NCBI GenBank assembly: GCA_964474885.1 | Contig: CAYYWO010000002.1 | Location: 67,358 to 131,357, forward strand | Direction of reading: 5' to 3' | DNA length: 64,000 nucleotides | Source: Candidatus Hadarchaeota archaeon | Lineage (GTDB): Archaea; Hadarchaeota; Hadarchaeia; Hadarchaeales; JAWBSP01 | Part shown: in pieces, positions 57,808 to 58,026 of the stretch | Position numbering within the stretch: the first letter of the stretch is position 1 | Layout: every line of letters begins with the position of its first letter | The notes under the pieces: generated by a model | Told to the model about the DNA's origin: nothing | Seen by the model: the letters and a program-made list of their open reading frames with translations, nothing else | The model's database searches: none | Made by a program: the position numbers and the translations under genes

Positions 57808-57897
57808 CAGTTCAGTATGTATGTAGGTATTTCTCCTCCGGATTTCGAATGATGGGGTGCTTTTGAAGCCTTAAATATCCGTCAGGGCATGCGAACG

Positions 57898-58026
57898 ATG
57901 CCGTGCTGCCCCAAGTGCCCCTACTATGACACGTGCCCCGAGAAAAACGACTGCTGCCCCAACTGCCCGTACTACTCAAAGGAAGGCTGCCTCTACTCCC
58001 AAGAGGAGGAAGAGCTGTTAGAATAA
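57898..58026 (+). CDS. 42-aa Cys-rich miniprotein with two CCPxCPYY repeats (below ORF-track cutoff)
   Basis: MPCCPKCPYYDTCPEKNDCCPNCPYYSKEGCLYSQEEEELLE*; TTAAATA at 57871-57877; alternative ATG 57889. Confidence 0.7.
   Translation: MPCCPKCPYYDTCPEKNDCCPNCPYYSKEGCLYSQEEEELLE

What the first reader, a model, noticed from the sequence alone, without database searches (positions are those of the whole stretch)
57871..58026. Uncalled 42-aa Cys-rich miniprotein with a duplicated CCPxCPYY motif
Seen: MPCCPKCPYYDTCPEKNDCCPNCPYYSKEGCLYSQEEEELLE has 8 Cys in the first 31 residues, two CCP(K/N)CPYY repeats that differ at synonymous positions (TAC TAT vs TAC TAC; CCC vs CCG), and an acidic tail. TTAAATA lies 27 nt before the ATG, the spacing expected for a leaderless archaeal transcript. 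The ORF ends 22 nt upstream of the ACT/hom genes. Inference: a metallothionein-like or Zn/Fe-S binding miniprotein; alternatively a Cys-sensing leader ORF for the homoserine operon.
Basis: partly seen in the sequence, partly recalled or inferred. Interest (0 to 1): 0.65.

Follow-up and report, generated by a model that had tools for sequence, protein, structure and literature searches.

The report
Conserved eight-cysteine miniprotein gene of Hadarchaeota
The 42-codon reading frame is a real gene under protein-level selection, found so far only in Hadarchaeota archaea; it encodes a very acidic miniprotein with eight invariant cysteines that probably hold metal ions, and it is not a leader peptide, though its function is unknown.

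Summary
The ORF exists as described: window 57898..58026 (+), 42 aa, 8 Cys, two CCPxCPYY repeats, TATA box 27-28 nt before the ATG, and a stop 22 nt before ACT-hom.

It is a genuine gene. I recovered 64 distinct orthologous peptides from 75 non-redundant loci, all from Hadarchaeota or unlabelled metagenome contigs.
- Every peptide has the same Cys spacing: CC-x2-C-x5-C-x5-CC-x2-C-x7-C.
- No orthologue has an internal stop.
- Synonymous sites are saturated (pS 0.80) against pN 0.22.
- Every Cys column mixes TGC and TGT.
- All orthologues examined keep a BRE/TATA promoter. The crown clade also has a strong Shine-Dalgarno site.

No Pfam, NCBIfam, PDB-sequence or Foldseek match was found. No relative turned up outside the phylum among 1.84 billion representative proteins.

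The gene always lies upstream of, and co-oriented with, ACT-hom(-thrC). It is directly adjacent in the three deepest lineages, including this window. In the crown clade it is separated from ACT by an Hsp20-like gene, often with a HomK/apgM-like gene, and has its own T-tract.

Best reading: a stand-alone Cys8 metal-binding mini-domain with an acidic tail. The leader-ORF idea is rejected, and the metallothionein label fits poorly because the family is aromatic-rich and rigidly invariant. The bound metal and the function remain untested.

The parts
57862..57877 (+). BRE/TATA promoter of the miniprotein gene (ttgaagCCTTAAATA). The TATA 8-mer CTTAAATA is at 57870-57877.
   Evidence: The sequence cgaaaNCTTAAATA is conserved upstream of the 13 orthologues aligned. 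It is one of only 7 perfect YTTWAWTA matches in the 64-kb window. The box start lies 28 nt from the ATG, as in L002, and within the 24-30 nt seen for other long ORFs of this window.
57898..58026 (+). Coding sequence of the 42-aa Cys8 miniprotein, stop codon included. It is probably translated from a leaderless mRNA.
   Evidence: for the sequence. 64 distinct orthologous peptides have identical Cys spacing. pN 0.22 against pS 0.80, and TGC/TGT are mixed in every Cys column. The identical product is called in a public assembly.
57904..57927 (+). Repeat 1, CCPKCPYY (first half-site C3, C4, C7; C13 follows at 57934-57936).
   Evidence: 21/24 nt identical to repeat 2. The half-site pattern CC-x2-C-x5-C is invariant.
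57952..57975 (+). Repeat 2, CCPNCPYY (second half-site C19, C20, C23; C31 follows at 57988-57990).
   Evidence: The half-site pattern CC-x2-C-x7-C is invariant.
57997..58023 (+). Acidic C-terminal tail SQEEEELLE.
   Evidence: The tail is acidic in most members, and the family median pI is 4.06. AlphaFold2 confidence is low here, pLDDT about 45. Two deep lineages have a less acidic or shorter tail.
58018..58029 (+). A/T-rich TATA-like element TTAGAATAAAAG overlapping the stop codon, 31 nt before the ACT ATG. It is a possible separate promoter for ACT-hom.
   Evidence: Comparable A/T boxes overlap or follow the stop in other 'direct' loci (L082 and L152 GTTAAATAAA, L002 CCAAAATAAAACC). This is inference only; there are no transcript data.
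58049..58549 (+). Stand-alone ACT-domain protein (166 aa), the conserved downstream partner gene.
   Evidence: Pfam ACT, E 9.9e-09. It was found downstream on the same strand in 56 of the 57 non-redundant loci where it could be scored.
58546..59538 (+). Homoserine dehydrogenase (330 aa), overlapping the ACT gene by 4 nt.
   Evidence: Pfam Homoserine_dh, E 8.6e-56. NCBIfam PRK06270, 408 bits, above its cut-off.

Best explanation
This is a genuine protein-coding gene and a member of an uncharacterised small-protein family known so far only from Hadarchaeota.

What is shown:
- The peptide is under protein-level purifying selection.
- Its eight Cys and their spacing are invariant.
- It has its own conserved archaeal promoter.
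- In this lineage the promoter geometry fits a leaderless mRNA starting at ATG 57898.

What is inferred about the mechanism:
- The peptide is an internal duplication of a C-C-x2-C-x(5/7)-C half-site that folds around metal ions.
- The two CxxC knuckles (C4/C7 and C20/C23, 12 residues apart) probably form one rubredoxin/zinc-ribbon-type Cys4 site.
- The four remaining Cys (C3, C13, C19, C31) probably form a second site. The two sites would be interleaved through the two vicinal Cys pairs, giving a rigid knot of about 30 residues packed by the conserved aromatic residues.
- The metal could be Zn(II), or Fe in this anaerobe.
- The flexible acidic tail and the net charge of about -6.6 argue against nucleic-acid binding and for docking onto a protein partner.

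The gene has stayed at the head of the ACT-hom(-thrC) threonine cluster across all sampled Hadarchaeota lineages. It is directly adjacent in the three deepest lineages. The most likely partner or target is therefore the ACT-homoserine dehydrogenase pair, with the miniprotein acting as a small modulator or adaptor. This last step is the weakest.
For: Reality of the gene:
- 64 distinct peptides from 75 non-redundant loci all have spacing (0,2,5,5,0,2,7). There are no internal stops.
- pS 0.80 against pN 0.22, with TGC/TGT mixed in all eight Cys columns.
- The 13 orthologues aligned keep the BRE/TATA element. Crown-clade genes carry a GGGAGG Shine-Dalgarno site 6-9 nt before the ATG.
- The mRNA is unstructured (z +3.14).

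Metal-binding inference:
- 19% Cys, with two invariant CxxC knuckles.
[quoted passage not shown] Here they are CPKCP and CPNCP, 12 residues apart.
- E22, D24, Y26, N17 and S27 are nearly invariant.
- AlphaFold2 gives its best confidence to the Cys core (pLDDT 75-80 for residues 1-30 of a crown-clade member) and low confidence to the tail.

Protein partner rather than DNA: pI 4.2, 9 acidic against 3 basic residues, family median pI 4.06.

Link to ACT-hom:
- ACT lies downstream on the same strand, 26-3725 nt away, in 56 of the 57 non-redundant loci where it could be scored.
- On a Hom neighbour-joining tree, the three deepest Hadarchaeota branches (window/L002, L152/L082, L136/L147) all have the miniprotein gene directly before ACT.
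Against: - There is no direct evidence of metal binding, expression or translation.
- AlphaFold2 confidence is only moderate to low (mean pLDDT 63.7 and 69.5). Foldseek finds no PDB match, so the two-site topology is my inference from the motif, not a model result.
- CPxC is not family-invariant: 29 of 64 peptides have none.
- The neighbouring genes are amino-acid biosynthesis and a chaperone-like protein, with nothing related to metals or redox.
- In the crown clade the gene looks monocistronic and is separated from ACT-hom by up to more than 3.7 kb. The linkage could be inherited synteny rather than function.
- The acidic tail is weak or absent in two deep lineages.
Confidence: 0.55

Rival explanations
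1. It is a small redox-active iron or iron-sulfur protein, rubredoxin/desulforedoxin-like or a minimal ferredoxin. The Cys would bind Fe or an Fe-S cluster, and the acidic surface would dock onto a redox enzyme.
For: - It is small, very acidic and aromatic-rich, with aromatic residues directly after each CxxC knuckle and an acidic C-terminus.
- The hosts come from hydrothermal-vent and sediment metagenomes.
- The authors of the CPxCG motif screen report about 15% cross-identification with Fe-S proteins (PMC2253796).

From my own knowledge, not tested here: Hadarchaeota are anaerobes. Rubredoxins also have aromatic residues after the knuckles and an acidic C-terminus. Desulforedoxin ligates a single Fe with a vicinal Cys pair.
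Against: No rubredoxin or ferredoxin Pfam or NCBIfam model matches any of the 40 members, even at E 10. The ferredoxin CxxCxxCxxxCP motif is absent. No redox enzyme is a conserved neighbour.
Confidence: 0.2
2. It is a metallothionein-like metal buffer or detoxifier. The thiolates would sequester several Zn, Cu(I), Cd or other soft metal ions (As and Hg are also candidates) in a cluster, and the gene would be expressed under metal or heat stress.
For: 19% Cys with CC and CxxC motifs in a 4.9-kDa peptide. The habitat is metal-rich hydrothermal vents and sediments. In 48 of 68 scorable loci the next gene is a divergent Hsp20-like stress protein.
Against: - 3-8 aromatic residues per peptide. From my own knowledge, classical metallothioneins have few or none.
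- Cys number, spacing and length are strictly invariant across the phylum, and non-Cys residues are conserved. That fits a defined fold better than a plastic chelator.
- The window holds a single copy, and no metal-responsive regulator or exporter is a conserved neighbour.
- No metallothionein family matches in Pfam.
Confidence: 0.12
3. It is a regulatory leader ORF whose translation senses Cys-tRNA supply and controls the downstream ACT-hom genes.
For: In the window the ORF ends 22 nt before ACT, with no T-tract in between. 8 of 42 codons are Cys. Direct adjacency is the basal arrangement.
Against: - The whole peptide is under purifying selection, with non-Cys positions nearly invariant.
- In the crown clade the gene has its own T-tract. 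A second TATA box serves the next gene, and 1-3 unrelated genes precede ACT. The peptide is nevertheless conserved equally well there.
- The transcript is less structured than shuffles, so there are no alternative hairpins.
- From established knowledge: a threonine-pathway leader would be expected to be rich in Thr/Ile codons, not Cys, and ribosome-mediated attenuation is not established in archaea.
Confidence: 0.04
4. It is a disulfide-knotted peptide or a precursor of a ribosomally made, radical-SAM-modified peptide. The Cys would form four disulfides or thioether cross-links rather than bind metal.
For: Each half-site follows a CC-C-C framework. From my own knowledge, similar frameworks occur in small disulfide-rich peptides. 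A radical-SAM gene lies divergently within 1.2 kb upstream in 27 of 54 scorable loci.
Against: - That radical-SAM protein belongs to the PA0069 / spore-photoproduct-lyase-like group. No SPASM or peptide-maturase family was among its Pfam or NCBIfam matches.
- It is absent next to the gene in the window and in L002.
- The peptide has no signal peptide, and its conservation shows no split into leader and core (my reading of the sequences).
- No SCIFF or other NCBIfam peptide family matches the window peptide.
- From my own knowledge: the hosts are anaerobes with a reducing cytoplasm.
Confidence: 0.05

Closest known systems
Small archaeal 'CPxCG-related zinc finger' proteins, for example Brz of Halobacterium salinarum (PMC2253796)
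   Same: - It is a very small archaeal protein that consists of little more than its Cys patterns.
- The window protein satisfies the published motif rule: two patterns 7-40 residues apart, at least one CPxCx.
- Like brz, which the paper describes as lying directly upstream of bop in the same orientation and regulating bop transcription, this gene sits directly upstream of, and co-oriented with, a gene set it might regulate.
   Different: - There is no sequence homology; this is a motif class, not a family.
- It has eight invariant Cys with two vicinal pairs instead of four Cys/His ligands.
- It is strongly acidic, so nucleic-acid binding is unlikely.
- CPxC is not conserved across the family.
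- A regulatory role is untested.
Rubredoxin and desulforedoxin (small Fe(Cys)4 proteins)
   Same: It has two CxxC knuckles, is small and acidic, and carries aromatic residues next to the knuckles. The comparison with desulforedoxin, where a vicinal Cys pair ligates the metal, is from my own knowledge.
   Different: No profile match was found. It has twice as many Cys, the knuckle spacer is only 12 residues, and no redox partner genes lie nearby.
Metallothioneins
   Same: It is small, has 19% Cys, and contains CC and CxxC motifs.
   Different: It is aromatic-rich, has a rigidly fixed Cys pattern, conserved non-Cys residues and an acidic tail, and matches no metallothionein family.
Bacterial amino-acid operon leader peptides (thrL/hisL type)
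   Same: It is a short ORF just upstream of a biosynthetic operon and is rich in one amino acid.
   Different: The peptide sequence is under selection. It is kept when uncoupled from the operon. There is no attenuator RNA structure, and the enriched amino acid is the wrong one for a threonine pathway.

Membership tests
CPxCG-related small zinc finger proteins (motif class of Tarasov et al. 2008, PMC2253796) | Two Cys/His patterns (C/H-x2-3-C/H) 7-40 residues apart, at least one of the form CPxCG, CPxCx or CxxCG | tested here: met
   The window protein has C4-P-K-C7-P and C20-P-N-C23-P with 12 residues between them (definition read). Across the family CxxC is invariant, but CPxC is present in only 35 of 64 peptides.
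CPxCG-related small zinc finger proteins (motif class of Tarasov et al. 2008, PMC2253796) | Binds zinc | not testable with these tools
   Needs metal analysis of the purified protein.
Metallothionein | Low molecular weight and high Cys content with CC, CxC or CxxC motifs | tested here: met
   4.9 kDa, 8 of 42 residues Cys, with CC and CxxC motifs.
Metallothionein | Few or no aromatic residues (classical definition, from my own knowledge) | tested here: not met
   5 aromatic residues in the window protein. The family range is 3-8 with a median of 6.
Metallothionein | Match to a described metallothionein sequence family | tested here: not met
   No Pfam family was matched by more than one of the 40 members at E up to 10, and none was a metallothionein family. 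NCBIfam gave no match for the window peptide.
Rubredoxin / desulforedoxin | Match to the rubredoxin-type profile | tested here: not met
   No hit in Pfam or NCBIfam. No PDB sequence relative. No Foldseek match.
Rubredoxin / desulforedoxin | Mononuclear Fe(Cys)4 centre | not testable with these tools
   Needs spectroscopy.
2x[4Fe-4S] ferredoxin | CxxCxxCxxxCP cluster-binding motifs | tested here: not met
   The spacing is CC-x2-C-x5-C-x5-CC-x2-C-x7-C in all 64 peptides.
Attenuator-type leader peptide | Only the regulatory codons are conserved, and the peptide itself is not under selection | tested here: not met
   pN/pS is 0.28 with saturated synonymous sites. E22, D24 and Y26 are at least 90% conserved, besides the Cys.
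Attenuator-type leader peptide | Alternative terminator and antiterminator RNA structures between the leader and the operon | tested here: not met
   Folding of 57898-58070 gives -29.6 kcal/mol against a shuffle mean of -41.9, z +3.14. There is no T-tract before ACT.
Attenuator-type leader peptide | Always immediately upstream of the regulated operon | tested here: not met
   It is directly upstream of ACT in only 7 of 68 scorable non-redundant loci. Elsewhere 1-3 genes, a T-tract and a second promoter intervene.
Radical-SAM-modified Cys-rich peptide precursors (SCIFF / ranthipeptide type) | Match to the precursor family and adjacency to a SPASM-type maturase | tested here: not met
   No NCBIfam match for the window peptide. 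The frequent upstream radical-SAM gene belongs to the PA0069/SPL-like group and is absent next to the gene in the window and L002.

The most novel reading that the evidence does not exclude
The miniprotein is a third, previously unrecognised component of the archaeal ACT-domain/homoserine dehydrogenase system. In this reading it is a Cys8 metal- or redox-sensing subunit that couples flux through the aspartate-family (threonine/methionine) pathway to cellular metal, sulfur or redox status. It would have been invented once at the base of Hadarchaeota and retained at the head of the cluster ever since.
Probability: 0.12. Interest if true: 0.7.

Novelty: new variant of a known kind. Interest (0 to 1): 0.45.

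Why it matters
Small proteins are still poorly catalogued in archaea, and none from Hadarchaeota, an uncultured subsurface phylum, turned up as characterised in my searches. This family is present in every sampled lineage and strongly constrained. It has a Cys8 pattern with two vicinal pairs that matches no described family or solved structure, so it probably represents a new minimal metal-binding fold. Its position at the head of the threonine-pathway cluster in every sampled lineage gives a concrete partner hypothesis (ACT-Hom) that can be tested with recombinant proteins without cultivating the organism. If the link is only inherited gene order, the family is simply one more orphan zinc-finger-like microprotein.

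Tried and rejected
1. Single-sequence searches found only the query itself (word-index search). The exhaustive phmmer search of 1.84 billion representatives added two true clusters and one spurious repeat protein.
2. Two profile searches found 40-42 proteins, all short. All are unnamed, or called 'hypothetical protein', in some cases from Hadarchaeota MAGs. None was attributed to another phylum.
3. An hmmsearch over six-frame translations of the 65 hom loci from other lineages (Methanosarcinales, Methanocellales, Bathyarchaeia, Caldarchaeales and others) gave no hit better than E 0.077.
4. Pfam and NCBIfam on the window peptide, and Pfam on all 40 family members, returned nothing consistent.
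5. A PDB sequence profile search gave only a chance hit at E 8.6.
6. Two AlphaFold2 runs gave mean pLDDT 63.7 and 69.5. Foldseek against PDB gave 0 matches for both.
7. Expression could not be tested. RNA-run searches for the window and L084 loci listed none. Four metatranscriptome runs gave zero depth on the window.
8. Rfam returned only a sub-threshold C/D-box hit upstream on the other strand.
9. Four literature searches (metallothionein in archaea; Hadarchaeota small or Cys-rich proteins; Haloferax CPXCG zinc fingers; homoserine dehydrogenase with ACT domain in archaea) found nothing on this family.
10. I considered that the 'apgM' gene inserted in the crown clade is unrelated to the pathway, and rejected that. 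It scores above the cut-off of TIGR02535 'proposed homoserine kinase'. A 2026 preprint describes such hom-linked homologues as homoserine phosphotransferase HomK. It is therefore probably a threonine-pathway gene.

Full report
**Observation.** The window carries an ORF at 57898..58026 (+) that encodes MPCCPKCPYYDTCPEKNDCCPNCPYYSKEGCLYSQEEEELLE.
- Eight Cys lie in the first 31 residues.
- The two CCPxCPYY units are at 57904-57927 and 57952-57975.
- TTAAATA is at 57871-57877, 27 nt before the ATG.
- The stop ends 22 nt before the ATG of an ACT-domain gene (58049..58549). That gene overlaps homoserine dehydrogenase (58546..59538) by 4 nt.
- Among 185 ATG-ORFs of 30-80 aa in all six frames of the window, this is the only one with more than 6 Cys.
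- 'Uncalled' does not hold for public data. The identical 42-aa product is a called gene on a Logan assembly contig, and orthologues are 'hypothetical protein' in NCBI MAGs.

**Organism and relatives.** The Hom protein places the window in Hadarchaeota (Hadesarchaea). The best genome hit is a Candidatus Hadarchaeales MAG at 70% identity. DNA runs that hold the locus are hydrothermal-vent and sediment metagenomes.

A Cys-density scan of the hom loci showed a co-oriented 8-Cys miniprotein upstream of hom in the Hadarchaeota loci only.
- An hmmsearch found it in 14 of 16 Hadarchaeota hom loci. The other two have too little upstream sequence.
- It found none in the 65 hom loci from other lineages, and only one copy in the window.
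- Exhaustive phmmer against 1.84 billion representatives found only two further true clusters.
- Two profile searches of 5.8 billion clusters found 40-42 short proteins. None has a Pfam domain, and all are unnamed or 'hypothetical protein', in some cases from Hadarchaeota MAGs.
- A metagenome scan added 64 loci.

**Is it a real gene?** From 75 non-redundant loci I extracted 64 distinct peptides.
- Every one has Cys spacing CC-x2-C-x5-C-x5-CC-x2-C-x7-C, with no internal stops.
- Besides the Cys, E22, D24 and Y26 are at least 90% conserved, and N17 and S27 nearly so.
- Pairwise Nei-Gojobori counts over 17 orthologues give mean pS 0.80 (saturated) against pN 0.22. Each of the eight Cys columns mixes TGC and TGT. 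Conservation is therefore at the protein level.
- All 13 orthologous loci aligned keep a cgaaaNCTTAAATA BRE/TATA element.
- In the window and its closest relative L002, the box starts 28 nt before the conserved ATG. An upstream in-frame ATG is only 19 nt from the box start. Other long ORFs of the window show box-to-ATG distances of 24-30 nt, which fits a leaderless mRNA.
- In the crown clade the box is about 50 nt upstream, and a GGGAGG Shine-Dalgarno site precedes the ATG.
The third, no transcript or translation, could not be tested.

- ACT was found 26-3725 nt downstream in 56 of the 57 non-redundant loci where it could be scored.
- The first recognisable downstream gene is a divergent Hsp20-like protein in 48 loci (NCBIfam archaeal Hsp20, E 3e-09, below cut-off).
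- It is an opposite-strand membrane protein in 13 loci and ACT itself in 7.
- Many crown-clade loci also carry an apgM-like gene before ACT. It scores above the cut-off of TIGR02535 'proposed homoserine kinase'. Homologues near hom are described as homoserine phosphotransferase HomK in a 2026 preprint.
- In the crown clade the miniprotein stop is followed by a T-tract, and a second TATA box serves the Hsp20-like gene. The miniprotein gene looks monocistronic there.
- On a neighbour-joining tree of Hom rooted with Methanosarcina, the three deepest Hadarchaeota branches (window/L002, L152/L082, L136/L147) all have the miniprotein gene directly before ACT. Direct adjacency is therefore probably ancestral and the insertions derived.
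- The upstream side is variable: serA-like in the window and L002, a PA0069/SPL-like radical-SAM gene in many loci, an IS66 transposase, or a PrimPol-like gene.
- In the window an MNT/HepT toxin-antitoxin pair is inserted between the serA-like gene and the miniprotein promoter.
- In the window no T-tract separates the miniprotein from ACT. However, an A/T-rich TATA-like element overlaps the stop codon 31 nt before the ACT ATG, and similar boxes occur in the other direct loci. Co-transcription is plausible but unproven.

**What it is not.**
- Leader ORF: rejected. The peptide is selected as a protein. It is retained when uncoupled from ACT-hom. The RNA from 57898 to 58070 folds worse than all 200 shuffles, z +3.14. 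Rfam finds nothing relevant.
- Classical metallothionein: a poor fit. There are 3-8 aromatic residues per peptide, the pattern and length are invariant, non-Cys residues are conserved, and no metallothionein family matches.
- Ferredoxin: the spacing does not fit.
- Radical-SAM peptide precursor: the frequent radical-SAM neighbour is not a peptide maturase and is missing here.

**What it most likely is.** The protein is 4.9 kDa with pI 4.2, 9 acidic against 3 basic residues, and 5 aromatic residues. It contains two invariant CxxC knuckles 12 residues apart.

In the window protein both knuckles are CPxCx. [quoted passage not shown] The founding member of that class, Brz, is encoded directly upstream of, and regulates, its target gene.

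The four extra invariant Cys include one at each vicinal pair. I infer a pseudo-symmetric, internally duplicated mini-domain with two interleaved Cys4 metal sites, C4/C7/C20/C23 and C3/C13/C19/C31. The metal could be Zn or Fe. This topology is inference.

AlphaFold2 gives only moderate confidence to the core (pLDDT 75-80 for residues 1-30 of a crown-clade member) and low confidence to the tail. Neither sequence nor fold searches find any solved relative. The strong negative charge argues against nucleic-acid binding and for a protein partner. The ancestral position makes ACT-Hom the obvious candidate, but that is the weakest step.

**Not obtained.** There are no metal data.

**Verdict.**
- The metal-binding reading is reasonable but untested.
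- The metallothionein label is weak, and the leader-ORF reading is rejected.
- It is a new, Hadarchaeota-restricted family within the known broad kind of small Cys-rich archaeal microproteins.
- Its unusual Cys8 pattern and its phylum-wide link to the threonine-pathway cluster make a specific hypothesis testable.
- Interest is moderate.

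Noticed in passing
window 57069..57404 (-) and 57397..57807 (-): A HepT (HEPN ribonuclease) and MNT nucleotidyltransferase toxin-antitoxin pair is inserted between the serA-like gene and the miniprotein promoter. It is absent at this position in the closest relative L002. The longest MNT ORF (136 aa) has an N-terminal CxxC...CxxC zinc-ribbon-like extension of about 38 aa, which the public gene call (97 aa) leaves out.
   Followed up: partly
window 54098..55531 (-): A 477-aa TnpB/Cas12f-like protein (Pfam Cas12f1-like_TNB and MJ0013 in the precomputed hits) sits between an RNA_binding (PF01877) gene and ribosomal protein L15e. 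L002 has those two genes adjacent, so this is a lineage-specific insertion of a mobile element.
   Followed up: partly
window 1..~9000: G+C is 41-44% here against 53-60% in the rest of the window, with many A/T-rich TATA-like 8-mers. It is a low-GC island, possibly acquired horizontally. Its genes were not examined.
   Followed up: no
L011 ~1240 and L111; protein P0017: One crown-clade lineage has a 1-nt shift at the start (AATGCCAAGTGC instead of ATGCCGAAGTGC). This removes the canonical in-frame ATG. The frame stays open upstream, and a 60-aa product is called from an earlier ATG.
   Followed up: partly
window 59504..61763 (-): Here hom is followed by a minus-strand 160-aa membrane ORF and a DNA ligase instead of thrC. 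Nearly all other Hadarchaeota loci have hom-thrC. The window's lineage is therefore rearranged on both sides of the miniprotein-ACT-hom trio, yet keeps the trio intact.
   Followed up: partly
L010 1936..3129 and equivalent genes in crown-clade loci: The apgM-like gene inserted before ACT-hom scores above the cut-offs of both 'cofactor-independent phosphoglycerate mutase' and TIGR02535 'proposed homoserine kinase'. Given its position it is probably the HomK-type homoserine phosphotransferase described in the GapMind 2026 preprint.
   Followed up: partly
L005 2900..3478 and equivalents (absent from the window): A 185-204 aa protein follows the miniprotein gene in most Hadarchaeota. It has a C-terminal alpha-crystallin-like stretch (archaeal Hsp20, E 3e-09, below cut-off) and a long N-terminal extension, and it has its own TATA box.
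   Followed up: partly
window 57748..57811 (-): There is a sub-threshold Rfam hit to the C/D-box sRNA sR53 (17.6 bits against a gathering score of 49, E 0.095). It lies inside the N-terminal extension of the MNT ORF and is probably chance.
   Followed up: no
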